Notes: generated from the sequence alone by a model not told the origin. Positions 1 through 19,062 are shown, counted from the stretch's first letter. The stretch is 20,000 nt of DNA from an uncultured virus (IMG/VR IMGVR_UViG_3300033148_006032) (IMGVR_UViG_3300033148_006032), one strand, 5' to 3'. Made by a program: numbers and translations.

Positions 1-831
1 TATGGTTGCCCTTTTAACGTCTCTCTGTTCTTGTAATGTCTTCGCTTCCATGACAAAAAATCTTCCTTTTGTGAAGGTATCCGTCTTAATTATATGTTGG
101 TGTACTTTTAATTCTGGTAATTCAAACTTTCTGTCCTCATATCCTAAATCAGAAGGTTTGGAAACCACGGCACCCCAACCAGCTATCCATTCCCAGAATT
201 TATCTTGGGCGTGTTTTTTTACCCTCCATTTAGAAGTATCTCCCCCGTCATGAACAAAAAAAGTGGCAAGCATTTCACTATATTTCATGATGCCTAAAAA
301 TTGACAATGATTCCCTAATTCCATGAAATCATTCGGAGCTGGAGTAGCTGTACATGCTAATCGATATGGTGTGTCTGCGAATATTTCAATGAGCTGGTTT
401 CTGGTTTTTCCATTCATAGATTTTAGGATACTTGATTCATCCAAAACTATTCCTTCAAACTTTTTCGCATTGAATTTGTGCAATTTCTCATAATTGGTAA
501 TGTTTATTCCAAGAGAAACAATATCCGTTTGAGATTCACATAAATTTATATTCAACCCGATCTTTTTTGCCTCATTGATTGTTTGTTTACTCACAGCTAA
601 TGGTGCTAAAATCAAAACTGTCCCAGGAATAAATCTAGCCCATTCACATTGCATCAATGTCTTTCCCAATCCAGTACCTGCGAATATGGCAGCTTTTCCT
701 TTTTTTAGTGCCCAAAAAACCAAATCACGTTGAAATTCGAATAATATATTGTGTAACGCTTCTCTGGGTATATGTAATCCATAATTTTGTGGAAGGAATT
801 GTTTCGATTTTAAAAATTCTTGATAATCCAT
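1..831 (-). CDS. SNF2/DEAD-like superfamily 2 helicase, N-terminal part (runs off the left edge)
   Basis: Not in the ORF track. Manual translation from ATG 831 (RBS AGGAGG) gives MDYQEFLKSK...LFEFQRDLVFWAL...IFAGTGLGKT (Walker A)...ILAPLAV...TNYEKL...IVLDESS (Walker B)...CTATPAPND (motif III). The frame is open to position 1. Confidence 0.88.
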   Translation of the reverse strand, partial: MDYQEFLKSKQFLPQNYGLHIPREALHNILFEFQRDLVFWALKKGKAAIFAGTGLGKTLMQCEWARFIPGTVLILAPLAVSKQTINEAKKIGLNINLCESQTDIVSLGINITNYEKLHKFNAKKFEGIVLDESSILKSMNGKTRNQLIEIFADTPYRLACTATPAPNDFMELGNHCQFLGIMKYSEMLATFFVHDGGDTSKWRVKKHAQDKFWEWIAGWGAVVSKPSDLGYEDRKFELPELKVHQHIIKTDTFTKGRFFVMEAKTLQEQRDVKRATI

Positions 832-832
832 A

Positions 833-2080
833 TTATGACGTTTCCCTCCTTTCCTTTCCCATTATCTTCATTTGTAGCAAGGCCAATCTGAATTCAAGGA
901 GGCTGTCTATTCCACAATACAGGAGCAGCTCCCTGAACGAATTTTTATCCTTGGTTAACTCCATAATTCTATTTGTTTCATTACTGCTTTTACTTTTCAA
1001 AAAAGGTGCCACACTATCATCATATCCTAAAACTCCGAATTGAACGTATGCTTGGAATTTTAATCCAGTAATTCCTGGAAGGTTATTGAGAATATGGGTT
1101 GCCTGCATTGTGTCAAATGCCCAAGGGTCTGGGCTAATCCCACACATAACATTCATCCAGGTGTCCTCATATTTCATGTTAGCTGCTATCTTTCCAATCC
1201 TTGGATTTTTCAGTAATTGCCGCAGTAATCTGAGGTATTTTTGCCGTGTTGGAAAGGGAATTACATAGGCTTTATTAACTTCTGCACAGAAAGAAATACA
1301 AACTATCTGATGTTTTTCCTTATCGTATGGCTTTAATCCTGTGGTCTCAATATCAAATGCCAATAATGGAGGAGCCTCATCATTCAAGGTTGTTAGTACT
1401 TCTTCAATATCCTCAGATATGATAATACAATCCTCTTCATTTTTGAATTTAGGGAAAGGTACCGTCACCTTCGCAAAGGCTTGTTTGAGGTCATTAGTCC
1501 AAATGACCTCGATTTCATTCGCTTCATCTTGCCTCTCCACGAAGGAAGGATGAAAAGTAGGGCAAACCCAAGCATTGTATTCTCTGTCTGGAATTGTCCA
1601 TCCTCTCCATTTTAATATCCCGCCCAAATTTTTATTCCATTTATATCCTATCAAAGAAGATAGAGCAGATTCTCCCAAGAGGATAATTACTTTTGGTTGA
1701 TACCCTTGTACCACAGCTAAAATCTTTTGTCGGCAGCATGATATTTCGTATTCTGTCGGTGCCCTGTTATTCCCTCTTTCATCTACAGGCCGGCAATTCA
1801 CCGCATTAAGACTGACACAATCCTCGAAAAGGTCTATGTCTAACTGTCTGAATTTTCGTTGAAGTGCCTTGCCTATTTTCCCTTGCCAAGGAATACCCTT
1901 TTTATCCTCTTCCCACCCGGGGAACTCCCCAATTACCATAATGCACTTCTTAAATTGCCCATAAGGTTTTATCCTGGGGGATAATGCATGTTTGTATAGT
2001 TGGCAAGAAGCGCACGAAAGTACACCTTTTTCGGATTTGTATGGTAACACATTTTTTTCTACCTCAAAGAATCCTTTCAT
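833..2080 (-). CDS. Family-4-type uracil-DNA glycosylase domain fused to a PolA-type 3'-5' exonuclease domain; no polymerase domain
   Basis: UDG motifs: CASCQL, GEFPGWEED, NAVNCRP..NRAPT..EISCC, PTFHPSF. Exonuclease motifs: AFDIETTGL (ExoI), ANMKYE (ExoII), FDTM, YCGID (ExoIII). Ends at a clean TAA. Confidence 0.88.
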   Translation of the reverse strand: MKGFFEVEKNVLPYKSEKGVLSCASCQLYKHALSPRIKPYGQFKKCIMVIGEFPGWEEDKKGIPWQGKIGKALQRKFRQLDIDLFEDCVSLNAVNCRPVDERGNNRAPTEYEISCCRQKILAVVQGYQPKVIILLGESALSSLIGYKWNKNLGGILKWRGWTIPDREYNAWVCPTFHPSFVERQDEANEIEVIWTNDLKQAFAKVTVPFPKFKNEEDCIIISEDIEEVLTTLNDEAPPLLAFDIETTGLKPYDKEKHQIVCISFCAEVNKAYVIPFPTRQKYLRLLRQLLKNPRIGKIAANMKYEDTWMNVMCGISPDPWAFDTMQATHILNNLPGITGLKFQAYVQFGVLGYDDSVAPFLKSKSSNETNRIMELTKDKNSFRELLLYCGIDSLLEFRLALLQMKIMGKERRETS

Positions 2081-2169
2081 GCTTTCCTCCTTCTCCGAAC
2101 CTTATATCCGCAATCGAAACACTCAGAACCATTGAAACCCCAGTAACCACATACGGGACATTTACGCAT
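2077..2169 (-). CDS. 30-aa zinc-ribbon-like microprotein MRKCPVCGYWGFNGSECFDCGYKVRRRRKA
   Basis: Manual translation. RBS GGGAGGGG, two CxxC pairs, and an ATGA overlap with the UDG-exonuclease start. It exactly fills the intergenic gap. Confidence 0.65.
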   Translation of the reverse strand: MRKCPVCGYWGFNGSECFDCGYKVRRRRKA

Positions 2170-2170
2170 A

Positions 2171-2428
2171 CTATTCCCCTCCCTTCTTATTCGGCATGAT
2201 TAAACGTGGGTGTTCATATACATGTTTTGGAATATCAATACCAGCATCTACCAATATAATAAATTCGGAAACTCCCCCGAATAAACCGGGGAGGATTCCC
2301 TGTTTTTGAAACGCCTCCACCTCTTCCCAGATTTCGTATAAATCACATTTTGATGTTGTATATTCCTCCTTAGTATAATACTTCCCATTAGTTTTGAAAT
2401 AGGTTAATTTAACCTTTAGTCCTTTCAT
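2171..2428 (-). CDS. Hypothetical phage protein (85 aa, MKGLKVKLTYFK...)
   Basis: Start moved to ATG 2428: TAATG overlap with the clamp stop codon and GGAGGAG RBS. Confidence 0.7.
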   Translation of the reverse strand: MKGLKVKLTYFKTNGKYYTKEEYTTSKCDLYEIWEEVEAFQKQGILPGLFGGVSEFIILVDAGIDIPKHVYEHPRLIMPNKKGGE

Positions 2429-3456
2429 TACTTCTCCTCCTCCGGCACCATTACCGCAACCATATGCTTCCAATTTTCCCCACTGAATCCGATTTTCCCC
2501 ACTCCAATTGTACAATTCCGGAGTTTTCCAAAAATACTTAACAAAAACTCAATACCGATTATAAATTTGACTGGTTTTCCTGTGTATTTTGTTCGGGTTT
2601 TTTCCTCAAACCAACCGTATTCATTTTCAGCAATTACCTTTACTTGTCCATCCTTAATTTGTATGGTTATGATAGGAATATCCCCATGACTTGATGCCTT
2701 CTTGGAAAATACATTTGCCCTTTCCAATATCTGCTCTATATTTTTTGGGAATTCAAATTCTACGCCCTCAAATTCTAAATGCTTACTTGTATCTGGAAAT
2801 TCATTATTCAGAATCCGGCAGGAAAATATTGTACCATCCTCCGTTTTAAAATGCAGCCAACTTTCCCCTATTGCTACTGATGTCACAGCATATTTGACAA
2901 GCTCCTTCGCTGCGGATGCGGGGATAAGACATGCTTTTATTGGCATTGTTTTATCCAAGGTATGTAGCACGATTTGATATGAGTCAGATGCTTGAATATT
3001 TTCTTTGTCAATACTGACACATGTTAGCACAGGCCGGCTCATATCCCGAGAGCAACAGGGATAACAGAATTTCAATGCTTCTACGAAATTCTCAGGAAGT
3101 TTTTTCCATTTTTCAATCTTGCCAATTTCTACCTCAATGGGGAGTTTGACCTCCTGCTCAAACACAAGCCCGGCTTTTGACTTACCCGCTTTGATAATTA
3201 CCTGATTTTCCTCCCAGGTAATATCAATTTCATCTTTTTTCACTTTGTCTAAAAATTTATAAAGGGCTTGCGCTTTAATTGCCCCTGTTACATCTAATCC
3301 TTCTACCGGATGTGAGATACTGATTTCATCATTGTACGTAACCACCTTACCCCCCATAAAGGTAAAACTAGTAGTTTGTTCTATCATTTCCTTGTTTGCC
3401 AATCCAGGTCGTACCTTTTCCAATGCTTCTTGTAATTGCGTTTTATTAACTTTCAT
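2428..3456 (-). CDS. dnaN: DNA polymerase III beta-type sliding clamp
   Basis: 342 aa with DnaN-like segments: N-terminal MKVNKTQLQEALEKV, SRPVLTCV, ASDSYQI, LIPASAAKEL, FSCRILNNEFPD, ILERA. Confidence 0.8.
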   Translation of the reverse strand: MKVNKTQLQEALEKVRPGLANKEMIEQTTSFTFMGGKVVTYNDEISISHPVEGLDVTGAIKAQALYKFLDKVKKDEIDITWEENQVIIKAGKSKAGLVFEQEVKLPIEVEIGKIEKWKKLPENFVEALKFCYPCCSRDMSRPVLTCVSIDKENIQASDSYQIVLHTLDKTMPIKACLIPASAAKELVKYAVTSVAIGESWLHFKTEDGTIFSCRILNNEFPDTSKHLEFEGVEFEFPKNIEQILERANVFSKKASSHGDIPIITIQIKDGQVKVIAENEYGWFEEKTRTKYTGKPVKFIIGIEFLLSIFGKLRNCTIGVGKIGFSGENWKHMVAVMVPEEEK

Positions 3457-3631
3457 ATGCTGTATCCTCCTTTAGATTTTTGATTGTTTGTAAAATTTTT
3501 ATTGCCTCATTACTTAACAATGCTGGTGTTATAATATGATAGTAACTTAGTAGTCTATTATATATTAGCAGCATTCCTCCTTGTCGGCAAGAATCATTCC
3601 CGGGGACAACAGAAGCCAAACAAATTTTCAT
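3446..3631 (-). CDS. Mini-protein E, resembling the DpdA-like N-terminal segment
   Basis: MKICLAS...YNRLLSYYH. ATGA-coupled to the upstream ORF. Confidence 0.65.
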   Translation of the reverse strand: MKICLASVVPGNDSCRQGGMLLIYNRLLSYYHIITPALLSNEAIKILQTIKNLKEDTAYES

Positions 3632-3828
3632 GTCTGTTTCCCCCGTTTGGCTATTTCAAATGCCTGAATAACATGATCTGTTAGTTCCTGTGTATTATTT
3701 GCTCCAGAGGAGAAATAGAAGAAAACTAACCGATTATAATCCGACCGTTTTACGGCTGCTCGTAAAACGGATGCCTCTTTTTTCATGGTGATCATTTGTA
3801 GGAAATTACCTGCTAAATATATTAGCAT
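3628..3828 (-). CDS. Mini-protein D, resembling the DpdA-like N-terminal segment
   Basis: Start moved to ATG 3828 (RBS AAGGAGG). MLIYLAGN...YNRLVFFYF. Confidence 0.7.
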   Translation of the reverse strand: MLIYLAGNFLQMITMKKEASVLRAAVKRSDYNRLVFFYFSSGANNTQELTDHVIQAFEIAKRGKQT

Positions 3829-3844
3829 AATGCACCTTTCCTCC

Positions 3845-4180
3845 TTAAATTTGAAAATCAATTCTTTTCTTTTTTTCCTTTGCTATAAAGTAATCTTCAA
3901 TATACGTACGCATTGCAATGTAATCTTTAACCGTCTTCATTATTATTTGATGCCTGCCTGTAAATCTTAACGAATATCCCTCATTCGGATATATGATACA
4001 ACCAGCATCCCCACAATCTCCATTGGTTATTATTGTTTCATAATCTATATATGCCATTCCAGCAGTGGTATATTCCCAAGTATATTTATCAAATTCCTTT
4101 TTGAAAGTATCAAAAATGGTATATCCATAAATTTCGGAATCCATATGTCTAGTTAGGTGCTTTTTATATGCACGTTTCAT
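3845..4180 (-). CDS. Hypothetical protein (111 aa)
   Basis: ORF fits the co-directional operon. No recognised motif. Confidence 0.65.
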   Translation of the reverse strand: MKRAYKKHLTRHMDSEIYGYTIFDTFKKEFDKYTWEYTTAGMAYIDYETIITNGDCGDAGCIIYPNEGYSLRFTGRHQIIMKTVKDYIAMRTYIEDYFIAKEKKKRIDFQI

Positions 4181-4331
4181 TTTTATGCGTATCTAACATT
4201 TCCATGCTACTAAACTTTTCCTGAACCATCCACCAAAAACTTAATAGAATTCTTGTTTGGTTAGTGTTGATTAATCCCTCCCATGCTCCAGGATCTTTTT
4301 TTTGCGGCCAAATAGCAAGATATATTCTCAT
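4164..4331 (-). CDS. Mini-protein C (55 aa), resembling the DpdA-like N-terminal segment
   Basis: Not in the ORF track. Manual translation: MRIYLAIWPQKKDPGAWEGLINTNQTRILLSFWWMVQEKFSSMEMLDTHKNETCI. Purine-rich RBS AAGGGAGAAG. Confidence 0.7.
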   Translation of the reverse strand: MRIYLAIWPQKKDPGAWEGLINTNQTRILLSFWWMVQEKFSSMEMLDTHKNETCI

Positions 4332-4352
4332 TTTCTCTTTCTTCTCCCTTCT

Positions 4353-5435
4353 TTATAAACCAAAACCTTGTATTTCCTTCCTTTTAAAAGGCCAAGGCCA
4401 TTCCGGCATTGATTTTTCAAGATCTTGAAAATAAATAATATTCATTTCATCCCGAAGCTGATATTTATTAGACAATCCAGGCTCCTCTATAATTTCAAGT
4501 AACCGCATCCTATTTTTATCCTTTGGTTTCCTTTCTGCCCATTTTTCATTTTCTTCCACTTCATGAGATTGGGGAACTTCCTCAAATCGAGATGTGCCAA
4601 GCACATATCCTTTTTCATGAATGTAATTCAGAATAACTTCCCTTTGTTTTGGGGAAAGGATGGAAATATGATCTCCTTCTTTCTTAATTTTAGGACTTCT
4701 ATTGGAAACGGGTATTTTCCAAGAGTTTTCATCATAAATCCATTCCCTATTTCGGTATCTTGGTACATATATTGCCCCGAATCTGGACGTGGCAACCCAT
4801 GATGTACTATCAACACTGAACCATGGATATCGCATCATAATAGGAAGAGATGTCAATCCAAAACCATGTACCTTAACTTTTGGAATACCCTTTTCATCAC
4901 AAATATATTTTGAAAAACATGTATCAAGCCAAGGAATTAATGTATTTTTTGGGGTGCCTACCATGCCTCCAAGGGCAATATAATCATATTGCTCTATGTA
5001 TTTATTTAGGTACTTGAAGGGCTCTCCGATATGAAAAACCGGTAAGGGATGAAGTCCCTCTTTTTCCATAATTCTCTGATTTTCTAATGTTTTTTTGGCG
5101 GCCTTCTTTTTATCAGATATGCTATTTCCCGAAGAAATAACATCAAGATTGGAATAAACTTCTAAAATATCTAGGTGCTCCTTGATAAAATCAATATATT
5201 TATGAATATCAATTTCTACTCCCTGAGTCCAAGCGGAAAATGCGCCTGAATCAAGAAATAAATGTATTTTATTATTGTTGTTTTTCTTTCTTCTCTCCAT
5301 AAGAATACTTCCTTCCTTGTGTTGCCCAATAACCAAGAAAAAATACGACCATAGCCGGAAATTCCAAAGACTATTTAATTTTTTCTCTCTTTTGACCCAT
5401 CCCCCTCCGGGAATTCCCGCCAGCAATATTTTCAT
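4353..5435 (-). CDS. dpdA: DpdA/TGT-like DNA guanine transglycosylase (7-deazaguanine insertion)
   Basis: TGT-fold motifs FLDSGAFSA, NLDVI, PVFH, ALGGMV, VHGFG, SVDSTSW. Adjacent to folE/queC/queE/queD. Confidence 0.8.
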   Translation of the reverse strand: MKILLAGIPGGGWVKREKKLNSLWNFRLWSYFFLVIGQHKEGSILMERRKKNNNNKIHLFLDSGAFSAWTQGVEIDIHKYIDFIKEHLDILEVYSNLDVISSGNSISDKKKAAKKTLENQRIMEKEGLHPLPVFHIGEPFKYLNKYIEQYDYIALGGMVGTPKNTLIPWLDTCFSKYICDEKGIPKVKVHGFGLTSLPIMMRYPWFSVDSTSWVATSRFGAIYVPRYRNREWIYDENSWKIPVSNRSPKIKKEGDHISILSPKQREVILNYIHEKGYVLGTSRFEEVPQSHEVEENEKWAERKPKDKNRMRLLEIIEEPGLSNKYQLRDEMNIIYFQDLEKSMPEWPWPFKRKEIQGFGL

Positions 5436-5595
5436 CTTTTCCTTTCCGAATTAATGATCTCACTAATTCAAATACACGACTGTCAATTTGTCCGAGAAAA
5501 ATATAGAAGAAAGAAAATAATCTGTGTCGGTATAACGAACTATTTTTCTTTTCTCTCTTGGCTAACGCAACCGTCCCGGCTAAATAAATTTTCAT
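5371..5595 (-). CDS. Mini-protein A, resembling the DpdA-like N-terminal segment
   Basis: MKIYLAG...KREKKNSSLYRHRLFSFFYIFLGQ aligns with the DpdA-like MKILLAG...KREKKLNSLWNFRLWSYFFLVIGQ. TAATG-coupled to the folE stop. Confidence 0.75.
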   Translation of the reverse strand: MKIYLAGTVALAKREKKNSSLYRHRLFSFFYIFLGQIDSRVFELVRSLIRKGKDENIAGGNSRRGMGQKREKIK

Positions 5596-6440
5596 TATTT
5601 TATTAACCCCATTAATTCTTGTCTTGCCCTACTATCCTCAAGAAAAACACCTTTCATAGAGGAAGTTCCCATAGTGGCTTGTTGTTTAGTGCATCCTCGC
5701 ATCCGCATACACATATGCGTCGCATCAATAATACAAGCAACCCCAAGTGGTTTGAGGTGTGTCATGAGGGCCTCTGTTATCTGTTCTCCTAAACGTTCCT
5801 GAATTTGCAGACGGCGGGCATATATATCCACAAGCCTGGCCAATTTAGAAAGTCCAATCACCCGCTTGTTTGGAATATATGCAAGGTGAACCACCCCAAA
5901 AAAAGGAAGCATATGGTGTTCACACATGGAGTAAAATTCAATATTTTTACAGAGAATAATTTGATCATATCCTTCTGCTTCAAATGTTGTTAAAAGATCT
6001 GCTGGATTCTGATGATATCCAACAAAAAGTTCATTCTGCCAAGCCCGGACAATTCGATTCGGGGTTTCTTTCAATCCTTCTCTTTTCGGGTCTTCCCCAA
6101 TAAATTGCAGAAGTCTTATTATGTTCTCCTGTATAGAATCACTCTGTTCTTGAGGATGGTCTGTTTCCCAAGGAAACTCAATCCATTCATCCGTATTTTT
6201 TGGTATCAATGATACGAAGTCGGCTTCGTGATATTTTTCCTCATAAAATTTCTTAGTAGCTCCAGAATCTACTAAATCATCAAGAATAATATTGGCGTTT
6301 TCTGGATAACATGTACTCTTTGCATTTTGTAAAAATCCAGCAGCTATCATTCCCCCTTTTGGTACTCCATAAACTATATTTTCAGGTCGATCTATACCTT
6401 TTAAGGCGTTAAAAATATCTTGCCATGACATTTTAATCAT
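5595..6440 (-). CDS. folE: GTP cyclohydrolase I with an N-terminal Gpt-like phosphoribosyltransferase domain
   Basis: FolE motifs: [38 protein letters not shown]. First ~92 aa: [16 protein letters not shown] (PRPP-binding loop), WIEFPWE. Confidence 0.93.
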
Positions 6441-7159
6441 TTTTTTATCTTTCCTTTCTCTTCTCTATTTTCATATATTATTGGATCTTCTTTATTAATT
6501 GCCTGGAATGCCGCAAGTCTTTCTCTGCACGCCCCACACTTTCCACAGCTAATTGGTTGTTTTTTATAACATGTTCGTGTGAGATGATAAGGAACAGGAA
6601 TATCTAATGAATATCCTATTTTTAGAATATCTCCTTTGTCCATATTTTCAAATGGGATCATCACTTGTACTTTCTGGTCTGAGGATAGATGAATAGTCCT
6701 ATTTAATGCGTGTATAAATGCGGGACGGCAATCTGGATATATGAAGTGGTCTCCTTGATGAATTCCGAGTGCTATCTTTTCCGCTCCTATTGATTCCGCT
6801 AACCCAGCCATAATTGACGCAAATATGAGATTTCTACCAGGTACTACTGTTTTTTTCATATTTTCATCATTATAATTCCCTTCTGGAATTTCCTGAGCGC
6901 ATTGTACCAGCAAATTAGAATTGAATTCTTCCATTATAGAGGAGATATTAAATTGATGAGGGCGTATTAATATCTTTGGAAAACCCGGTTTTAAATATTC
7001 TATTATTTTGCCAGCAGCTTTGTTTTCATATGCATTATGGGTAGAACCATATGTGAAAATACAACAATGAATTTCGTCGTTTTCCTTTGCTTGCTGGAGT
7101 AACTGACAAAGTAAAGTAGTGGAATCTAATCCTCCAGATAAGCCAATTATTATTTTCAT
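6437..7159 (-). CDS. queC: 7-cyano-7-deazaguanine (preQ0) synthase
   Basis: SGGLDST PP-loop, [16 protein letters not shown]...[10 protein letters not shown]. Start moved to ATG 7159 (RBS GGAGG). Confidence 0.95.
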
Positions 7160-7195
7160 GATTTGCCTCCTTTGTATAGCCCGTATGATATCTAT

Positions 7196-7221
7196 AAGAA
7201 GAGGTACCATTACCCCTTCTT
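7196..7221 (-). terminator. Stem-loop, possibly a weak intrinsic terminator or processing site
   Basis: On the minus strand AAGAAGGGGTA-ATGG-TACCTCTTCTT forms an 11-bp stem with one G-U pair, just after the stop at 7238. There is no strong U-tract. Confidence 0.5.
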
Positions 7222-7237
7222 ATTTGGATAGATTCTA

Positions 7238-7819
7238 TTACTTTGCCCGGTATTTTCCATTCACCAATTCAACAAGAAATTTATTTTTGCTAATTTTATT
7301 CGGAACCTGCACATGTATCGTGTTTTTCATAGAACTTGGATTTCTTTCCGGAAATTTTTTTATGAGTTCCTTTAAAATTTCTTCTTTGGTAGTCCCTTCT
7401 TTTCCGGCACTTTTTATTAGTGCAGCTATGGTGGCTATTATTCCTATCTTTTTTACAGACCTAGTTTTCCCATTTTGAGGTACCTTAGGTTTTTCTTCCT
7501 CGGTCTCTGTCTCTTCCTCCTTTTTCTTTGTTTCAGTTCCAGTATCTTCCTCTGTTTCTTCCTCTGTTTCTTCCTCTGTTTCTTCCTCTGTTTCTTCCTT
7601 TGTTTCTTCCTCTCCTTGCCTTTTCTGCAAGGCTTTAATTGCTTTCTGCGTGTCAGAAGAAATCTTATCCTGTGGTTCCAACAATTCGATGGCTACAGTA
7701 AGTTCTTCTGTTAACTCTTTCACTGGTGCCTTAAGGTTAATTTCGGGTTTTAAGCCCAAAAGAGTGTTTAACTCTTTCGCCGCCTTTACCAATGCCTTTC
7801 GATCCAACTCATAACTCAT
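7238..7819 (-). CDS. Protein with an acidic EEET-repeat linker and a basic C-terminal domain (possibly winged-helix DNA binding)
   Basis: Start moved to ATG 7819 (RBS AGGAGG). C-terminus IIATIAALIK...TKEEILKELIKKFP...NTIHVQV..VELVNGKY looks wHTH-like (inference). Confidence 0.7.
   Translation of the reverse strand: MSYELDRKALVKAAKELNTLLGLKPEINLKAPVKELTEELTVAIELLEPQDKISSDTQKAIKALQKRQGEEETKEETEEETEEETEEETEEDTGTETKKKEEETETEEEKPKVPQNGKTRSVKKIGIIATIAALIKSAGKEGTTKEEILKELIKKFPERNPSSMKNTIHVQVPNKISKNKFLVELVNGKYRAK
7547..7606. repeat. 12-bp tandem repeat TTCCTCTGTTTC x5 (last copy has one mismatch), encoding ETEE
   Basis: Read directly from the sequence. Confidence 0.9.
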
Positions 7820-7858
7820 TTTACGACCTCCTATAATCAATTTTATTTTTTCCACTAT

Positions 7859-7889
7859 TATTATACATCGTAACTAATTTTGGTTTAGG
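7859..7889 (-). promoter_or_regulatory. Putative promoter CCTAAA-N15-ATGTATAATA
   Basis: TATAAT lies in an intergenic gap upstream of an RBS. The same two-part motif with the same spacing occurs at 9501-9531. Confidence 0.6.
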
Positions 7890-8553
7890 GCATCTTCAAA
7901 ATTTTATGCAATTGGAAAGAGAAAATAATGTGATCTAATAAGAAATAATTACTTTCCTTAATCCTTTCTACTATCTCAGGTATTTTGTTTATATCAGCGT
8001 CAATTGGGCTGACAATACACGGTATATTACATTTCCAATGGATGAAATGTTCCATTTCTTGGAGCATAAAATCGACATCTTTTTTGTCAAATACCACCCA
8101 TTTCAGATATACAAATCCTCCTTTAGTTTTGGCCTCTTCAATCTTCTTGCAAAGGGCTTTCAACGGCATCATGTTTCCTGACATTCCAGATGATGGGCAT
8201 TTCCTGTCTATTACCCAATGTACTTGAGGAATAGATAATGGAGGGTAACTTCCATTTGTCTCCACCTGAATCACATGCCCTCCTTCCTGTAATTCTTTGA
8301 TCAGCAACGGGAGTTCTTTTTGCAGCAAGGGTTCCCCTCCTGTTATCAATACATGCTTATTCCGTACCATTTTCAGAATAGCAGGGAGTTCCATTTCGTA
8401 GCATATATCATCCCTCTCCTGAGCCTGCGGGGTGTCACACCATCTGCATCGTAAATTACATGCTTGCAGTCTTATCCCCGTCATCCAGGTTCCCTGAGGA
8501 AATCCGCCAGCCTCCCCGGAGATGGATTCAAATATATTATTGACCTTAAACAT
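7885..8553 (-). CDS. queE: 7-carboxy-7-deazaguanine synthase (radical SAM)
   Basis: FESISGEAG, CNLRCRWCDT (CxxxCxxC), ITGGEP, VETNG, FQLHK. Confidence 0.93.
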   Translation of the reverse strand: MFKVNNIFESISGEAGGFPQGTWMTGIRLQACNLRCRWCDTPQAQERDDICYEMELPAILKMVRNKHVLITGGEPLLQKELPLLIKELQEGGHVIQVETNGSYPPLSIPQVHWVIDRKCPSSGMSGNMMPLKALCKKIEEAKTKGGFVYLKWVVFDKKDVDFMLQEMEHFIHWKCNIPCIVSPIDADINKIPEIVERIKESNYFLLDHIIFSFQLHKILKMP

Positions 8554-8956
8554 TTTCTCTCCTCCATTCTACGTATGATGTAGGTGATTCATACAATCTT
8601 ACAAAGCTCACATGCTTGATGAAGGGGCCTCGGGCTGATACAGCCTCCAACATCCCAATTATCCAAATCAATATGTTTTCTGCCGTCGGGCTATACTTTG
8701 GGAAGCCCTCTTCTACCTTGTTCAGGAATTCGTGATCCAATTTATCCACTATGAGTTGATTAATAATGTGTTTTATCTCCACAAAATCAATAACCATGCC
8801 TGTTGTTGGATTCACGTATCCTTTGACTCCAACATGAAGTACCCACCGGTGTCCATGGATTTTTTTACATTTTCCTTCATACCTTGGTAAAAAATGGGCG
8901 GCATCAAATGAAAACTCCTTTACCACTTCAATCTGCATTTTTACATTCGTTTCCAT
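8546..8956 (-). CDS. queD: 6-carboxy-5,6,7,8-tetrahydropterin synthase
   Basis: FDAAH, CKKIHGH, LDHEFLN, PTAENI, YESPTS. Likely start is ATG 8956 after AGGAGGAAAGGAAAG, although the frame stays open upstream to 9190. Confidence 0.93.
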   Translation of the reverse strand: METNVKMQIEVVKEFSFDAAHFLPRYEGKCKKIHGHRWVLHVGVKGYVNPTTGMVIDFVEIKHIINQLIVDKLDHEFLNKVEEGFPKYSPTAENILIWIIGMLEAVSARGPFIKHVSFVRLYESPTSYVEWRRENV

Positions 8957-9205
8957 ACTTTCCTTTCCTCCTATCTCATTTTTATTTATCATATCCCACA
9001 AGGGACAGCTATATTTATCTGTATCAACCAGCTGATTCCTGTACAGATAATTTATCAATCCATTATCACTGCAAACATATTGTCTATATCCAAATTCAGT
9101 TGGTTTATACCAATCATACATATTTGAGTTTGATTGCCTCATAGATTTTAAATTGTTTTGTCTTGCTATTTTACGGGCGATTTCATGAGTTCATTTGATT
9201 CTCAT
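8957..9205 (-). pseudogene. Interrupted ORF in frame with queD (TGA at codon 5)
   Basis: Strong RBS AGGAGGAGG, then ATG 9205 reads MRIK*THEIARKIARQNNLKSMRQ... with no further stop before queD. Confidence 0.45.
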
Positions 9206-13003: not shown

Positions 13004-13471
13004 CTATCTTTGTTGATCTATTTCCGCAGCAGTTTTGTCAAGTTTTTTGTTTTTTGTGCATATTTGAACTAAATCATTGATTTTCTTAATATCTAAAAAT
13101 TCACTTTCTGATATGTTGATCATAAATTTATCTTCAATTGCTACGAGGATATTTATTCTATCTATACTATCTATTCCTATATCCGCAAGACTGGCGTTTT
13201 CCTGTATATCCTCCTCCAATACGTCTGTCTTCTCTTGTATAATCCGTTTAATTGTTGCGAAAACAGATTCTTTTGATGTCTTTTTATACTCTGGTCCTCT
13301 TACACATTTTCCCCAACCAATCGAATTAATTGGTCTTTGGTGTCGCATCTCCTCAAGTTTCTCATCCCTATCCATACGGTACATCTTAATTACCACACAA
13401 ACCATCTTAATAAAAAGAAATAACACTAACGCATAACCTAAAAAACAATACAACTTTATTTGCTCAAACAT
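13004..13471 (-). CDS. Acyl carrier protein domain with an N-terminal hydrophobic (transmembrane) segment
   Basis: VFATIKRII...ASLADIGIDSIDRINILVAIEDKFMINISESEF..IKKINDLV matches the ACP four-helix pattern with the DS phosphopantetheine site. Residues ~7-28 are hydrophobic. Confidence 0.82.
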   Translation of the reverse strand: MFEQIKLYCFLGYALVLFLFIKMVCVVIKMYRMDRDEKLEEMRHQRPINSIGWGKCVRGPEYKKTSKESVFATIKRIIQEKTDVLEEDIQENASLADIGIDSIDRINILVAIEDKFMINISESEFLDIKKINDLVQICTKNKKLDKTAAEIDQQR

Positions 13472-13702: not shown

Positions 13703-14144
13703 TTATTTGTCACCAACGCTGCACTTTCCTTCTAAATGATCAAGTTCATGACAAAAAAATTCTTGCCTCCAACATTTCCGCCTTAATGGTAATTTCCATC
13801 CCTTTATTATCAAAACCTCTGATAACTATTACATTTGGTCTACTAATTTCCTTTTCTACTCCTGGGTAACTTAGGCAGGTTTCTTTCCCCAGGTTTTCAT
13901 CTGTACTACTGCTTGGGATTTCCGGATTAATCACTATCCATATTCCCTTTTTGAGTTGTTTTCGCACAATGATTATTCGCTCTGCAACTCCTATTTGTGG
14001 AGCGGCTAGCCCCACCCCTTGGTTTTCTAGCATGATATCGCGCATATTCGTAACGATATCATTAAGGTGAGCATCGAATGCCGTAACTTCTTTGCAGATT
14101 GTTTTCAATATCGGATCACCTTTTATCCGTAATTGATATTCCAT
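13703..14144 (-). pseudogene. def: Peptide deformylase with a 1-nt frameshift in a T7 tract
   Basis: GDPIL, GVGLAAPQIG and ETCLS are in one frame. Removing one T at 13753-13759 restores ARIFCHELDHLEGKCSVGDK* (HExxH). Confidence 0.9.
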
Positions 14145-14157
14145 TTCCTTACCTCCT

Positions 14158-14358
14158 CTATGCATTACTTATTTTATCACGCAAATTCTTCATCTCTTGT
14201 ATCTGTTCTTCTACCATCCATAAACAGCTTCCATTTTTTTCAATTAATCTTTTTTCTAATTTGTTTAGTCTACTTCCAAGTGATATTTGTAACAGTTGTA
14301 GTTGTCTGTCAGTAACTTTTAATACACTTTCTCTTGTTTCCATTGTTGTCTTTGTCAT
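14158..14358 (-). CDS. Small helical hypothetical protein (66 aa)
   Basis: Start moved to ATG 14358 (RBS AGGAGG). Confidence 0.65.
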   Translation of the reverse strand: MTKTTMETRESVLKVTDRQLQLLQISLGSRLNKLEKRLIEKNGSCLWMVEEQIQEMKNLRDKISNA

Positions 14359-14800: not shown

Positions 14801-17734
14801 TTAAATTTCATCCTCCTGGGTGGTTGAATTCTCCATATATGCTCCTGTTCCTGCAGAGGAATAGCTTTCCAAAAAAGGTCTTCCTGCTGCTAAATCTTGC
14901 AAAACCACCACTTCATTATCCCCGGAAAAGGCCCCCTCTCTCACGACAATTTCATTTATTCGTAACACCCCAAGTTTTTTTTCCCGCCCATGCGGATCTT
15001 GATTCAATCCATATTGGGCGGTCACATGTGCCAATTTCCTTTTATCCTCACTAAAATTGGACAAAGATAACCTGCCTTTCTTATAACTGTCCGCGTCTGC
15101 CTGTGTTGCAGACAGTAATAATAAATGTCTTTCCTGGGACATTGCCCTCAGGTTTTTCCAGATATGGTCTTGTCGATGTCTAAATTCAGATACTTTTCCA
15201 TCATCAGCAGAAAGCAAATCTGCATAATCCACCACAATAATATCTGGAACGAATCCATCCCTCCGCTCCCAATCATTCAAACGGTTTCGCATTTCTGTTA
15301 CCGTCAAGGTTCCCGCAGGATAGGTGATAAGTTTAAAACGCCGCTTATATTTTTTAAAGAATGTCCGTATGTTTCTTTTAGCTTGCTTTACTCTAAGGGG
15401 CTGTACTCTCTTCATTTTTTGGAGCCACACTGCCCCCATCCGTTTTTGACATCCATAAGCGCGACAGGTTTCATATTCCGGAAACTCCTCATATTTTTTT
15501 TTCAAAGTTTCTATGTTCGCAAATTCATGAATTTCCTTGTTGAAAAGTTCTAATGTGACTTCTTCAAATATTCCGTGGTCACAATTTCGGTCTGTCCGAG
15601 TACATATATCAAGTTGATTCAGTACACAGTCCCCACGAGGACGAAACCGTTCTTGGCAATACTGTCCTTTATCTGATTTCCTAGCTAAATATACGCAAAT
15701 TCTACGCAGTACCTGACTTTCCGTCATATCCCCAGCCTCAAAAAAAGCAACATTTGCCTTTTGTCGAATAGCCCGCAGTGCTATCTCCATTAAAAGAAAT
15801 GAATTATGAACAATTATATTTTCTGCTATGAAATTATGGGTTTCTGGTATGGTTAGATCAAATGTTTCCTTTTCTCCAACATAAGAAATATCAAGCACTT
15901 CATCCCATAGAATGTGAGAATCAAAATATTTTTTTCCAGCTTTTGTATCCTGTACTTCAAGAAAGGATTGCCTCATTATTGGAGCTTGTTTGGTAATTTG
16001 TTCCCTAACACTCGAAGCTTTTTGAAAAGCTTGCCTAAAAACAGGAATATTTTGATGTTGCCCACTTCCCGGTCCTCTTGGGATTACGTCACAGCATCCT
16101 TCTAATTCAAACAAAACTTCATCATGAAATTTTTTTGCTATTTGTGGAGGGAATTTATCCAAAAATGATTTATAAGCTGGTTTTCTTATAGATAACACTT
16201 TTTTTAACTTATTTTGTTTTTTGTAAAGAAAGCCTATTTCTGTGGCGAATCGGGAAGCATTTTCCCAATCTCCGATTGAAACAGTCCAAGCTCCAGCTTT
16301 GTCATTTTTTTTAAAAGAGATTTTAGCAACTATTCCAAACCGACTCAATAGATGATGCACTTGACGAGCAAGATATTCATTGGCTACTGCAAATCCTATT
16401 TGCAGATCTTCCTTTTCATTTACCCATCCATCGCAGGAATATAAAACCTTTAAAAACAAGGATAAATCTTTTTTTGGTAATTGAAAAACATCGTTTGGAA
16501 TTCTCTTATCATAACTTAATTTATTCCACAAACCAAGCCGTCTTAACATTCGAAGCACATAGTTTTTATTGTGTTTATTTCTATTTCCTTTCGCATTTAT
16601 TACACTACCTGCTATGCCTTTCCATCTTACTGCGCATTCCATTTTTTTTATACATCGAGTAAAGTCTTTTTGAATATCCACATCGGCAGAAGAAAACAGA
16701 AGGACTTTAGTTCGTGCGTATTTATAATTATATTCCCGCAAACAACCTTCGGTAATAAAATAAGCAATCAAGCGAATTTTAAATTCTTTCATTTGCAACT
16801 TCCCGAACACAGGGATATGTTTTGGGGCTGCAATAAAAGAACCCGTTTTTATTTCAGACAAGTTCCTCCATCCATCTGGTGTCAGAAATGGATGATTAAT
16901 TGTTGCTTCTATACATCTTCCAGTTTTGGTAGTTACCTGATAAATAGATTTAACCCCATTTTTCCAAAACTGAGATATTTGAGATGGTATAAAGCTCTGA
17001 GTATTATCATCAAATGAAATTATGTCCTTTCTATTTTTTTCTATAATCTCATAGATAGTCAATTCCTCTCCTGTGGACATAAGTACTTTTTGATCACCAG
17101 ATAGGCACTTCCCGCGTTTTTCTGGGGCAAGAAATGTCACAAATCCACCCCTGATAAAATGGGCATTCAGCATCTTTCCTAACGCTCCAGGATAGGATAC
17201 AACCTGTTGCCCAGTTTCACTGAACGCTATTTCTACCCGTTTTATGGCTTCCTTACTGGATAATTCAAGACCAGCATCTACACCCTCAATAATAGTGGGA
17301 GTATATGCTTGCATTAATTTTTCAGCCTCTGCAATATCCCCCGTATCAATGAGATCCTGAACCTCCAGATTATGCTTTTCAAGTTCTTGTGTTTTCAGAT
17401 ATTGAACTGTTTGGTCATACAGATAGGCAGAATTGAACTGGGTATCTCGTCCGTATTCATCGCTTAAATCGGATAATAACTCCTCTATGTATTCGGCATC
17501 CGCTTTAGGCAGTTTACCTCCTTTTAGATGCTCCATGTAAATATTTTGTATGTCATTGTCCGGTACTTTACTATATTTTTCAAAGTAGGAGGTGCACCAT
17601 CCCGCTATCATTTTTAATTCGGGGGATTCAAGCAAGGCGGGATTCCATATTGGATGAACCCTTTCCTGATAGTCTGTACTGATGATCAATCCTGTAATTA
17701 TCCTACGTTCGATAAATTCTGTATCATTTGTCAT
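14801..17734 (-). CDS. dnaB: DnaB-like replicative helicase (542-aa extein) containing an intein
   Basis: Spliced Walker A APEKRGK|S, FFEAGDM, IVVDYADLL (Walker B), SATQA, FSEDKRK, GLNQ. Confidence 0.85.
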   Translation of the reverse strand: MTNDTEFIERRIITGLIISTDYQERVHPIWNPALLESPELKMIAGWCTSYFEKYSKVPDNDIQNIYMEHLKGGKLPKADAEYIEELLSDLSDEYGRDTQFNSAYLYDQTVQYLKTQELEKHNLEVQDLIDTGDIAEAEKLMQAYTPTIIEGVDAGLELSSKEAIKRVEIAFSETGQQVVSYPGALGKMLNAHFIRGGFVTFLAPEKRGKCLSGDQKVLMSTGEELTIYEIIEKNRKDIISFDDNTQSFIPSQISQFWKNGVKSIYQVTTKTGRCIEATINHPFLTPDGWRNLSEIKTGSFIAAPKHIPVFGKLQMKEFKIRLIAYFITEGCLREYNYKYARTKVLLFSSADVDIQKDFTRCIKKMECAVRWKGIAGSVINAKGNRNKHNKNYVLRMLRRLGLWNKLSYDKRIPNDVFQLPKKDLSLFLKVLYSCDGWVNEKEDLQIGFAVANEYLARQVHHLLSRFGIVAKISFKKNDKAGAWTVSIGDWENASRFATEIGFLYKKQNKLKKVLSIRKPAYKSFLDKFPPQIAKKFHDEVLFELEGCCDVIPRGPGSGQHQNIPVFRQAFQKASSVREQITKQAPIMRQSFLEVQDTKAGKKYFDSHILWDEVLDISYVGEKETFDLTIPETHNFIAENIIVHNSFLLMEIALRAIRQKANVAFFEAGDMTESQVLRRICVYLARKSDKGQYCQERFRPRGDCVLNQLDICTRTDRNCDHGIFEEVTLELFNKEIHEFANIETLKKKYEEFPEYETCRAYGCQKRMGAVWLQKMKRVQPLRVKQAKRNIRTFFKKYKRRFKLITYPAGTLTVTEMRNRLNDWERRDGFVPDIIVVDYADLLSADDGKVSEFRHRQDHIWKNLRAMSQERHLLLLSATQADADSYKKGRLSLSNFSEDKRKLAHVTAQYGLNQDPHGREKKLGVLRINEIVVREGAFSGDNEVVVLQDLAAGRPFLESYSSAGTGAYMENSTTQEDEI
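15803..17107 (-). mobile_element. Intein with LAGLIDADG homing endonuclease (435 aa)
   Basis: Starts CLSGD; block B ATINHPF; endonuclease motifs LIAYFITEG and FLKVLYSCDG; ends TFDLTI..THNFIAENIIVHN followed by Ser+1. Confidence 0.95.
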
Positions 17735-19010: not shown

Positions 19011-19018
19011 AATATCCT

Positions 19019-19055
19019 CCTTTATATTATACATCCCCTTTATATTATACATCCC
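19019..19055 (-). promoter_or_regulatory. 18-bp tandem duplication containing ATGTATAATA (putative -10 elements)
   Basis: GGATGTATAATATAAAGG x2 immediately upstream of the RBS of the 19010 gene. Confidence 0.55.
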
Positions 19056-19062
19056 TACACAT

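What the first reader, a model, noticed from the sequence alone, without database searches (positions are those of the whole stretch)
3446..5595. Array of stand-alone mini-genes mimicking the N-terminal module of the DpdA-like enzyme: candidate split, swappable-module DNA modification system
Seen: five N-termini within 2.1 kb share one pattern. 5595 MKIYLAG..KREKK..HRLFSFFY..GQ; 5435 (DpdA-like) MKILLAG..KREKK..FRLWSYFF..GQ; 4331 MRIYLAI..TRILLSFWW; 3828 MLIYLAG..YNRLVFFYF; 3631 MKICLAS..YNRLLSYYH. Four are separate 55-74 aa ORFs with their own RBS or start/stop overlap. Codons differ at conserved residues, which argues for old, selected paralogues rather than fresh duplication debris. The segment between the two conserved motifs varies in length and sequence. 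Established: TGT/DpdA enzymes are TIM barrels, and the DSG motif lies downstream of this segment. Inference: the mini-proteins supply the first barrel strands in trans. Alternative modules could change target sequence, base substrate or activity, or act as dominant regulators. I know of no description of this arrangement.
Basis: partly seen in the sequence, partly recalled or inferred. Interest (0 to 1): 0.88.

Follow-up and report, generated by a model that had tools for sequence, protein, structure and literature searches.

The report
Spare barrel-quarters for phage DpdA
A phage enzyme that swaps guanine in DNA for a 7-deazaguanine has the first quarter of its barrel fold encoded five times, once fused and four times as tiny separate genes, which probably plug into the enzyme as interchangeable subunits.

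Summary
Five N-terminal modules lie at 3446-5595 on the minus strand. One is fused to a DpdA-like gene (PHROG 887, E 6e-59). Four are separate ORFs of 74, 55, 66 and 61 aa. A profile built only from relatives in other phages ranks these five first among 432 window frames.

The AlphaFold model (pLDDT 89.7) places the module as strands b1 and b2, with their helices, of a TGT/DpdA TIM barrel (7ui4, Z 19.8). Of the 120 best homologues, 52 lack this module. In 26 of 26 viral loci found with a mini-gene profile, a DpdA core lies just upstream.

A co-fold of the window's core (residues 46-360) with mini4331 scored 0.91 against 0.02 for the best control. The mini's b1 lies against b8 and its b2 against b3.

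Each window module is closer to modules in other phages than to its window paralogues. They are therefore old, conserved types.

Assembly in trans is predicted, not shown, and its purpose is inferred; changed DNA-context specificity is my best guess. This scan has noted the same arrangement on at least eight other genomes. I found no paper describing it.

The parts
5371..5595 (-). mini5595: stand-alone N-module, 74 aa (effective about 54 aa; the tail overlaps dpdA out of frame). Its type is 'AGT..RE..RLFSF..' with a following helix.
   Evidence: Profile hit E 3.3e-10. The closest relative is the fused N-terminus of homologue P0147 (score 121, against 83 to the best window paralogue).
5301..5435 (-). 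N-module fused in frame to dpdA (residues 1-45; type 'AGxPGGGW.KRE..LN..W..RLWSY'). It forms b1 (2-5), a1 (13-20), b2 (27-30) and the start of a2.
   Evidence: AF2 model. Covered by PHROG 887 from residue 1. 28 of 43 residues identical to the N-terminus of P0099.
4353..5300 (-). DpdA core from M46 (codon 5298-5300): b3 to b8 plus the C-terminal part. It carries D62 (DSG motif) and D209 (SVDSTSW). M46 is a candidate internal start.
   Evidence: The source's gene caller called this 315-aa form (P0096). SD-like AAGGAAGGAAG lies 7 nt upstream, duplex energy -7.6.
4164..4331 (-). mini4331: stand-alone N-module, 55 aa, a divergent member of the 'ATWL..RLLSY' downstream type.
   Evidence: E 1.9e-8. 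Co-fold with the core scored 0.91 against 0.02. Best outside match L020/L021 scored 70, against 27 inside the window.
3845..4180 (-). Interposed 111-aa ORF of unknown function. It overlaps the end of mini4331 by 17 nt. It is not a module.
   Evidence: No Pfam or PHROG hit. The Atlas gave only unnamed viral clusters at 0.79-0.80.
3628..3828 (-). mini3828: stand-alone N-module, 66 aa ('AGNF...NRLVFFYF' type), the weakest member.
   Evidence: E 1.4e-3; E 1.2e-6 with the larger profile. Best outside match L020_4319 scored 80, against 40 inside the window. AAGGAGG RBS.
3446..3631 (-). mini3631: stand-alone N-module, 61 aa ('ASxxPGN(E/D)S..GMLLI.NRLLSYYHI' type).
   Evidence: E 2.7e-8. 38 of 56 residues identical to P0017; score 203 outside against 42 inside the window. 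dN/dS 0.11 against L021.
5595..9142 (-). preQ0 synthesis genes upstream in the same direction: folE (5595-6440), queC (6437-7210), a 205-aa acidic ORF (7238-7855), queE (7885-8553), queD (8546-9142).
   Evidence: Pfam: GTP_cyclohydroI 3.7e-72, QueC 1.8e-53, Radical_SAM 1.7e-11, PTPS 2e-34.

Best explanation
The window comes from a phage that makes preQ0 (folE, queD, queE, queC) and inserts it into its own DNA with a DpdA-type transglycosylase, a (beta/alpha)8 barrel.

In this phage lineage the first quarter of the barrel (b1-a1-b2-a2, about 45-55 residues) is a separable unit. It can be fused to the catalytic core (b3-b8, which carries both catalytic aspartates), or encoded as its own mini-gene. 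Here there are five copies of five different, anciently diverged types: one fused and four free.

The most likely working is as follows. A free quarter docks between b8 and b3 of a headless core and closes the barrel. The headless core would be made here from the internal start at M46, whose ribosome-binding site is as strong as those of naturally headless cores. This would give up to five isoforms of one enzyme.

The strands are conserved across types. The b1/a1 and b2/a2 loops on the catalytic face differ between types but are conserved within each type. In bacterial DpdA these two loops help to form the DNA-binding surface and flank the active site. So the most likely purpose is to vary which guanines (which sequence contexts) are modified, or how DNA is held, broadening protection against restriction.

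Shown: the homology, the fold assignment, the conservation, the linkage to dpdA, and the existence of natural headless cores. Predicted: docking. Inferred: use of M46 and the effect on specificity.
For: 1. Family and fold. PHROG 887, E 6e-59, over residues 1-252. AF2 model pLDDT 89.7 with eight b/a units, b1 at 2-5 and b2 at 27-30. Best structural matches are DpdA 7ui4 (Z 19.8, rmsd 3.4, 280 aligned, model 1..345) and Z. mobilis TGT from chain residue 40.

2. Natural splits. L003/L004 encode a 315-aa core starting 7 residues before LFLDSG, with a 50-aa mini-gene whose start overlaps the core's stop. Of the best 120 of 3467 homologues, 68 have the module and 52 do not.

3. Linkage. 26 of 26 viral loci fetched with a mini-gene profile hold a DpdA core (E <= 1e-10) on the same strand just upstream, with 1-6 module hits per locus.

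4. Breadth. 95 stand-alone proteins of 42-91 aa in the word-indexed search. 412 clusters at E <= 1e-3 among 1.84 billion representatives; 147 of the best 150 are 117 aa or shorter.

5. Same types free and fused. mini5595's closest relative is the fused N-terminus of P0147. P0009 is a free copy of the type fused here.

6. Old paralogues under constraint. Every window module scores higher to a module outside the window than to any paralogue inside it (121/83, 150/83, 70/27, 80/40, 203/42). dN/dS was 0.09-0.74 wherever dS was finite.

7. Modules and cores have separate histories. Spearman 0.088 between core and module identity over 2278 pairs. Examples: core 79% with module 23%, and core 57% with module 85%.

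8. Docking. Core 46-360 plus mini4331 gave ipSAE 0.91, against 0.02 for the best of 3 controls. That mark was reached by 116 of 157 solved complexes and 2 of 215 mismatched pairs. Runs agree in at least 85% of contacts, and partner pLDDT is 70-73. Mini residues 2-4 touch core 161-164 (DpdA 206-209, b8). Mini residues 28-30 touch core 14-16 (DpdA 59-61, b3). This is a split-gene pair, so the pass partly reflects likeness to the fused relatives.

9. Internal start. 58 of 68 fused homologues keep a Met 3-19 residues before the motif, 40 of them at -8/-9, which is where headless forms start. SD duplex energy at window M46 is -7.6. Junction Mets of read-through forms average -4.55 (n=13), headless starts -6.96 (n=12), and other in-frame ATGs -2.48 (n=190; p 0.026 and 9.5e-5).

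10. Role of the loops. [quoted passage not shown]
Against: - The window's DpdA has its own fused module, so nothing here requires a module in trans. A fused module would compete with free ones.
- The M46 start is unproven. The source's 315-aa gene call (P0096) may only reflect a gene caller avoiding the 65-nt overlap with mini5595. The purine-rich stretch before M46 also encodes K/E/G residues. The SD enrichment at junction Mets is modest (p 0.026, n=13), and the script's fused/headless labels are rough (L013 and L027 are mislabelled).
- The co-fold used an artificially truncated core and only one of the four minis. Partner pLDDT is only 70-73.
- No expression data exist, and no experiment links any module to DNA specificity. 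The loop argument is carried over from a bacterial DpdA that is only 15% identical.
- mini3828 is a weak family member (E 1.4e-3).
- dS is saturated in most pairs, so dN/dS is soft evidence.
- No cultured phage with the arrangement was found. Only one mini type was searched.
Confidence: 0.6

Rival explanations
1. Regulators rather than specificity subunits. The free quarters compete for the core, or for the slot of the fused module, and tune DpdA activity. For example they could time modification during infection, or some could act as dominant negatives. The DNA target would not change.
For: The same docking prediction fits a competitor as well as a subunit. The catalytic aspartates D62 and D209 lie in the core, so a module could hold the barrel in an inactive shape. 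Modules in relatives are switched off by frameshifts in (AG)n tracts, as expected for dispensable modulators.
Against: Naturally headless cores (52 of 120; L003/L004) need a module in order to have eight strands at all, so at least one type must be a constructive subunit. Several distinct types are each conserved across phages in a similar gene order, which is more than a simple on/off regulator would need.
Confidence: 0.15
2. The modules connect DpdA to other partners, such as the replisome, the sliding clamp or DNA in general. They would do this through their variable, often basic C-terminal tails. Alternative quarters would then localise or load the enzyme rather than read sequence.
For: The mini-genes lie among replication genes: the clamp gene starts at 3456, right after mini3631, and in L003 a second mini follows the clamp gene. 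The tails after b2 are type-specific and rich in K/R.
Against: No partner was tested. In the co-fold the tail of mini4331 (residues 37-55) makes no confident contact. The strongest within-type conservation is in the b1/a1 loop, for example the invariant A-T-W-L, not in the tails.
Confidence: 0.1
3. Function independent of the phage DpdA core. The minis could be decoys against a host factor that recognises DpdA, or could bind another TIM-barrel protein of the host.
For: The window enzyme already has a module, so the extra ones lack an obvious slot. 412 clusters of free minis exist.
Against: 26 of 26 loci place them beside a DpdA core. The only core-like frame in the window is dpdA. Fused forms of the same types exist. 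The control with an unrelated 316-residue chain scored 0.02.
Confidence: 0.07
4. Decaying debris of repeated 5' duplications of dpdA, with no function.
For: Some copies in relatives are frameshifted. mini3828 is weakly conserved.
Against: All four window ORFs are intact, with start codons and an RBS or start/stop overlap. Each has closer relatives in other phages than in its own genome. dN/dS is below 1 wherever measurable. The family has 412 clusters of free proteins.
Confidence: 0.03

Closest known systems
Single-chain phage DpdA (DpdA1 type: Escherichia phages CAjan and 9g; Queuovirinae such as Vibrio phage pVco-14 and Pseudomonas phage JG054)
   Same: - Same family (PHROG 887; tblastn 34-44% identity).
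- Same gene neighbourhood: queE-queC-queD-folE-dpdA-clamp-polymerase.
- Catalytic aspartates at matching places. CAjan has Asp63 and Asp206 according to passages of PMC7544227; here they are D62 and D209.
   Different: In those phages the N-terminal quarter is part of one roughly 312-aa chain and there are no mini-genes. In 2 of 2 loci examined, dpdA is followed directly by the clamp gene. Here there are four extra free quarters, and close relatives have headless cores.
Bacterial DpdA of the Dpd restriction-modification system (Salmonella Montevideo, PDB 7ui4; PMC10164549)
   Same: Best structural match (Z 19.8). A TIM barrel without the N-terminal lid of the TGTs. A DNA preQ0 transglycosylase. 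Its b1/a1 and b2/a2 loops are implicated in DNA binding.
   Different: 15% identity. It needs DpdB and ATP. It has a structural Zn site (CXCX2CX22H), a motif I did not see by eye in the window protein. It is a single chain.
Eukaryotic heterodimeric TGT (QTRT1/QTRT2; 7nq4 and 7ovs)
   Same: A TGT-family enzyme built from two different polypeptides.
   Different: There the two subunits are two complete paralogous barrels, not a barrel divided into 2/8 and 6/8.
Fragment complementation of barrels in the laboratory (HisF half-barrels, half-barrels of a beta-glycosidase PMC4591997, lacZ alpha-complementation; recalled, except the listing)
   Same: A (beta/alpha)8 barrel, or an enzyme, restored by non-covalent assembly of fragments.
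   Different: Those are engineered, or symmetric 4+4 halves. This is a natural 2+6 split with several alternative small pieces.
Type I restriction-modification systems with several alternative or phase-variable HsdS specificity subunits (recalled; a likeness of working, not of descent)
   Same: One catalytic machine with a choice of small specificity subunits, some switched by repeat tracts. Compare the (AG)n frameshifts in relatives.
   Different: Unrelated proteins. There the specificity subunit is a separate domain, not part of the catalytic fold itself. The specificity role of the DpdA modules is unproven.

Membership tests
DpdA / TGT superfamily (DNA 7-deazaguanine transglycosylase) | TGT-type (beta/alpha)8 barrel | tested here: met
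   AF2 pLDDT 89.7 with eight b/a units. Foldseek hit to TGT, E 6.9e-7. VIA-align hit to 7ui4, Z 19.8, rmsd 3.4, 280 aligned.
DpdA / TGT superfamily (DNA 7-deazaguanine transglycosylase) | Two catalytic aspartates: the general acid/base in the DSG motif after b3, and the nucleophile after b8 | tested here: met
   D62 and D209 are invariant in 79 aligned homologues. They correspond in position to CAjan Asp63 and Asp206, as named in PMC7544227. I did not make a residue-level alignment to CAjan.
DpdA / TGT superfamily (DNA 7-deazaguanine transglycosylase) | Structural Zn site (CXCX2CX22H in bacterial DpdA and TGTs) | tested here: not met
   By inspection of the 360-aa sequence, I saw Cys only in 'DTCFSKYICDE' and no such motif. 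This separates it from the bacterial DpdA type, not from phage PHROG 887.
Phage DpdA, PHROG 887 | Significant profile match over the barrel | tested here: met
   E 6e-59, residues 1-252 on profile positions 10-243 of 509. No Pfam family at E <= 1.
Phage DpdA, PHROG 887 | Clustered with preQ0 synthesis genes | tested here: met
   folE, queC, queE and queD lie directly upstream on the same strand.
Phage DpdA, PHROG 887 | Inserts a 7-deazaguanine into DNA | not testable with these tools
   Needs LC-MS/MS of phage DNA or of DNA from an expression host.
Split DpdA with free N-quarter subunits (arrangement noted earlier by this scan; no paper found) | Free mini-genes homologous to b1-a1-b2(-a2) of DpdA, beside dpdA | tested here: met
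   (26 of 26 loci).
Split DpdA with free N-quarter subunits (arrangement noted earlier by this scan; no paper found) | Catalytic core encoded without the N-quarter | tested here: not met
   In this window the core is fused in frame to a module (ORF 4353-5435). A headless product is possible only from the internal M46. Relatives L003/L004 and 52 of 120 homologues are truly headless.
Split DpdA with free N-quarter subunits (arrangement noted earlier by this scan; no paper found) | Physical assembly of mini and core into a closed barrel | tested here: inconclusive
   The prediction supports it (0.91 against 0.02; b8-b1 and b2-b3 contacts). It is a model of a truncated core, not a measurement.

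The most novel reading that the evidence does not exclude
One catalytic DpdA core draws on a small library of interchangeable quarter-barrel subunits. Each subunit sets a different DNA context for guanine-to-preQ0 exchange. In related phages, individual subunits are switched on and off by slippage of (AG)n tracts inside the conserved RERE motif. A phage population would then carry a combinatorial, phase-variable pattern of DNA hypermodification. This would be the counter-defence mirror image of phase-variable restriction specificity subunits, and a natural example of enzyme specificity being reprogrammed by swapping part of the catalytic fold itself.
Probability: 0.2. Interest if true: 0.92.

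Novelty: new variant of a known kind. Interest (0 to 1): 0.78.

Why it matters
DpdA-type DNA hypermodification is a main way for phages to escape restriction and Cas9. What sets its sequence context is unknown: GA and GGC in CAjan, GA only in iggy (PMC7544227 passages; PMC10484667 abstract).

A natural system in which the b1/a1 and b2/a2 loops come as exchangeable small proteins would give a direct experimental handle on that question. One core could be combined with one mini at a time.

It would also be a rare natural case of a TIM barrel assembled from a 2/8 and a 6/8 piece, with several alternative small pieces. That is of interest for protein evolution, where quarter-barrel ancestry is debated, and for engineering split, programmable DNA-modifying enzymes.

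On the practical side, gene callers and annotators miss or mis-start these genes. The source's own call here begins dpdA at M46.

Tried and rejected
- **Pfam:** nothing for DpdA or any mini. PHROGs gave nothing meaningful for the minis.
- **PDB by sequence:** no relative of DpdA at E <= 1. The fold search was needed instead.
- **Own assembly:** the window's own assembly is not held. The nearest record, G001, is a 17.6-kb fragment, 100% identical over the region, so it adds no independent copy.
- **Broad mini alignment:** The search for related loci with alignment A2 failed because it has no conserved stretch. The narrower alignment A6 worked. The 26 loci therefore sample only the 'ATWL' type.
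- **Cultured phages:** tblastn of one mini (P0012) against 50,697 cultured-phage records found no match at E <= 1. The other mini types were not tried.
- **Sequencing runs:** none was listed for 3400-5700 and no RNA holder was listed.
- **Atlas search of the 111-aa ORF:** only unnamed viral clusters under 0.9.
- **Fresh tandem duplication:** rejected, because the five DNA copies do not align beyond the first codons and each has closer relatives elsewhere.
- **P0096 as proof of the M46 start:** rejected. A gene caller avoiding the overlap with mini5595 would make the same 315-aa call.
- **Change of base substrate by the modules:** considered unlikely (see the b6/a6 passage).
- **Literature:** searches were 'DpdA, phage, 7-deazaguanine', 'DpdA, split', 'DpdA / TIM barrel / in trans' and 'split TIM barrel / quarter barrel / naturally split / fragment complementation'. 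Word searches were also run inside PMC10516641 and PMC6884629 for split, truncated and N-terminal. None described a split DpdA or spare modules. Subscription journals and supplements were not seen.


Full report
**What is in the window**

All genes in 1-9142 run on the minus strand and form a phage replication and DNA-modification block:
- queD (8546-9142), queE (7885-8553), an acidic 205-aa ORF, queC (6437-7210) and folE (5595-6440);
- the region of the finding (3446-5595);
- a sliding-clamp-like gene (2428-3456);
- a UDG/3'-5' exonuclease fusion (833-2080) and an SNF2-type helicase (1-831).

The 360-aa ORF at 4353-5435 matches PHROG 887 ('queuine tRNA-ribosyltransferase', the phage DpdA family) at E 6e-59 from its first residue. 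It has no Pfam hit. tblastn against cultured phages gives 34-44% identity to annotated DpdA genes of Pseudomonas, Stenotrophomonas, Vibrio and other phages. The Queuovirinae phages pVco-14 and JG054 show the same order, queE-queC-queD-folE-dpdA-clamp-polymerase.

**The observation**

Four are separate ORFs of 74, 55, 66 and 61 aa, each with its own ribosome-binding site or a start/stop overlap.

As a test against chance I built an HMM from seven modules of other phages only and ran it on all 432 frames of 25 aa or more in the window. The five modules are the five best hits (E 3.3e-10 to 1.4e-3); the sixth frame has E 0.33. The DNA copies do not align beyond the first codons.

**What the module is**

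An AlphaFold2 model of the 360-aa protein was built with 79 aligned homologues (mean pLDDT 89.7, pTM 0.87). It shows eight beta/alpha units. The module holds b1 at residues 2-5, a1 at 13-20, b2 at 27-30 and helices at 31-36 and 40-51. b3 (59-62) carries the DSG motif.

- Foldseek finds the TGTs (E 6.9e-7) and the bacterial DpdA 7ui4.
- VIA-align ranks 7ui4 first (Z 19.8, rmsd 3.4, 280 residues, model 1..345).
- VIA-align aligns model residue 1 with residue 40 of Z. mobilis TGT, where the barrel begins.

The module is therefore the first quarter of the barrel. D62 and D209 are invariant in the alignment. They sit where CAjan DpdA has Asp63 and Asp206 (passages of PMC7544227). Both lie in the core, not in the module.

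**Relatives show that the quarter is a separable unit**

- **L001** (DpdA 58% identical) has one mini-gene between folE and dpdA and one after dpdA.
- **L002** has a fused module and one mini-gene.
- **L003 and L004** encode a 315-aa DpdA that begins MRKEKINLFLDSG, with no b1 or b2. A 50-aa mini-gene follows, its start overlapping the core's stop. There is also a frameshifted remnant and a further mini after the clamp gene.

Of the best 120 of 3467 homologues (55-74% identical), 68 carry at least 38 residues before the LFLDSG motif and 52 start 3-27 residues before it. Two of the 52 begin with L and may be cut by a contig end.

The fused modules fall into several recognisable types on very similar cores. 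Over 2278 pairs of the 68 fused forms, core identity and module identity are nearly uncorrelated (Spearman 0.088). Examples are a core at 79% with a module at 23%, and a core at 57% with a module at 85%. Modules and cores therefore have different histories.

**The free mini-genes are a large family tied to dpdA**

- A profile of 12 modules finds 95 proteins of 42-91 aa, all unnamed and without Pfam domains.
- An exhaustive profile search of 1.84 billion representatives finds 412 clusters at E <= 1e-3 and 92 at <= 1e-10. Of the best 150, 147 are 117 aa or shorter.
- Some hold two modules in tandem (P0089, P0222, P0225, P0272, P0303). One is joined to an HNH-like endonuclease (P0305).

A profile of the 'ATWL' type fetched 26 viral loci. 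Three of these are the contigs of L001, L003 and L004, and L014 and L015 are near-identical. All 26 hold a DpdA core on the same strand just upstream, and they carry 1 to 6 module hits each.

**The window's five modules are old paralogues**

Each scores better to a module outside the window than to any of its window paralogues (local BLOSUM62 scores):

| Window module | Best score outside | Best score inside |
|---|---|---|
| mini5595 | 121 | 83 |
| fused module | 150 | 83 |
| mini4331 | 70 | 27 |
| mini3828 | 80 | 40 |
| mini3631 | 203 | 42 |

mini5595's best relative is the fused N-terminus of P0147. mini3631 is 38/56 identical to the free protein P0017.

Where synonymous divergence was not saturated, dN/dS was 0.09-0.74. 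Window values were 0.11 to 0.74 for mini3631 and 0.34 and 0.53 for mini5595. Most pairs are saturated.

Strands b1 and b2 are conserved across all types (M1, I3, A6, R/L/S of b2). The b1/a1 loop is type-specific but conserved within a type, for example the invariant A-T-W-L in 20 sequences.

**Docking**

- The score was 0.91 against 0.02 for the best of three controls.
- That mark was reached by 116 of 157 solved complexes and 2 of 215 mismatched pairs.
- The runs agree in at least 85% of contacts, and partner pLDDT is 70-73.
- Mini residues 2-4 lie against core 161-164 (DpdA 206-209, b8).
- Mini residues 28-30 lie against core 14-16 (DpdA 59-61, b3).

This is exactly the gap left by the missing quarter. 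The pair are the halves of a split gene, so the pass partly reflects what the model has learnt from fused relatives. It supports binding and does not show it.

**The puzzle of this window, and a possible answer**

Here the enzyme is not headless. For the four free quarters to matter, a headless core must exist.

- 58 of 68 fused homologues keep a Met 3-19 residues before the motif. Forty of these are at -8 or -9, the offsets where headless forms start. By eye, most of the other ten have Val there.
- In the window this Met is M46, preceded by AAGGAAGGAAG at 7 nt.
- Duplex energies with a generic anti-SD are as follows:

| Site | Duplex energy | n |
|---|---|---|
| Window M46 | -7.6 | 1 |
| Junction Mets of read-through forms (mean) | -4.55 | 13 |
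| True headless starts (mean) | -6.96 | 12 |
| Other in-frame ATGs of the cores (mean) | -2.48 | 190 |

The one-sided p values against the background ATGs are 0.026 for the junction Mets and 9.5e-5 for the headless starts. This is suggestive only. The linker is purine-rich for coding reasons, and the script's labels are rough. The source's 315-aa gene call can be explained by avoidance of the overlap with mini5595.

**Likely purpose**

The crystal-structure paper on bacterial DpdA states two relevant things (PMC10164549, passages):
- The b1/a1 insertion (Ins1), together with Ins8, forms the positively charged DNA-binding surface.
- The b2/a2 insertion (Ins2), together with Ins3, flanks the active site and may contribute to sequence-specific recognition. 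The 7-substituent of the base is read by the b6/a6 loop.

Both Ins1 and Ins2 belong to the exchangeable quarter; b6/a6 does not. Phage DpdAs are known to differ in context: GA and GGC in CAjan (PMC7544227, passages), and GA only in iggy (PMC10484667, abstract). My best inference is therefore that different quarters change DNA context or DNA handling, not the base inserted. This step is untested.

**Comparison with what is known**

The enzyme family, pathway and neighbourhood are those of known phage DpdA. The new feature is the architecture: a 2/8 + 6/8 division of the barrel with several conserved alternative small pieces.

I found no description of it in four full-text searches, nor in word searches inside the two main phage papers. 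Subscription journals and supplements were not seen.

This scan has recorded the same arrangement on at least eight other genomes. These are AI notes, not independent evidence. One of them (e1-5906933) also describes one fused and three free copies.

**Side observation in relatives**

Six modules are broken by a frameshift exactly in an (AG)5-8 tract that encodes the conserved RERE motif. They are in L009, L013, L019, L023, L029 and L033.

From my reading of those tables, 6 of 12 modules with a tract of 10 nt or more are shifted, against 2 of about 50 with shorter tracts (Fisher p about 4e-4). The regex screen misses some modules. The window's own tracts are only 7 nt and both are in frame.

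**Verdict**

Assembly in trans is well supported by comparison and prediction, but unproven. The function of having five types is open.

Noticed in passing
L009:4330-4420, L013:486-560, L019:2406-2480, L023:2967-3115, L029:3389-3450, L033:2800-2900: Modules broken by a frameshift exactly inside an (AG)5-8 dinucleotide tract that encodes the conserved (K)RERE motif at the start of helix a1. Intact modules in L001, L013, L019 and L023 carry tracts just as long. This looks like on/off switching by repeat slippage, or recurrent decay at a fragile site. The window's tracts are 7 nt and in frame.
   Followed up: partly
L017:432-2306: A DpdA core interrupted in frame by about 945 nt just before the SVDSTSW nucleophile motif. 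The insert ends ...YVTGN|SVDS, so it looks like an intein in the active site. L025 shows a smaller break between profile positions 201 and 198.
   Followed up: no
L021:1124-4216 and L031:2052-3637: Two DpdA cores in one locus, with mini-genes between them in L021. These may be paralogous cores sharing the module set.
   Followed up: no
window 14801-17734 (-): A 977-aa replication-helicase-like ORF carrying an intein with a LAGLIDADG endonuclease (Intein_splicing 1.5e-25 at 218-644; LAGLIDADG_3 4.8e-14).
   Followed up: no
window 18126-19130 and 19250-19696 (-): Two paralogous ORFs with long arrays of the tetrapeptide SV(R/G/W)(A/D), and identical N- and C-terminal flanks shared with 19734-19997. 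Other frames through the repeat are open too. No Pfam hit.
   Followed up: no
window 13004-13471 and 13746-14165 (-): A phage-encoded acyl-carrier-like protein (PP-binding 2.9e-12) and a peptide deformylase (1e-33).
   Followed up: no
window 5595-6440 (-), residues 1-100 of FolE: FolE has an N-terminal extension of about 100 residues before the GTP cyclohydrolase I domain (103-280). It contains '[11 protein letters not shown]', which I recall as resembling the PRPP-binding motif of phosphoribosyltransferases. Pfam gave no hit for it. JG054 FolE is similarly long.
   Followed up: no
window 7238-7855 (-): A 205-aa ORF between queC and queE with an (EETE)n acidic repeat. Only weak, sub-threshold Pfam hits.
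   Followed up: no
proteins P0089, P0222, P0225, P0272, P0303, P0305: Single ORFs holding two modules in tandem, and one module joined to an HNH-like endonuclease sequence. These may be read-through of adjacent genes or real fusions.
   Followed up: no
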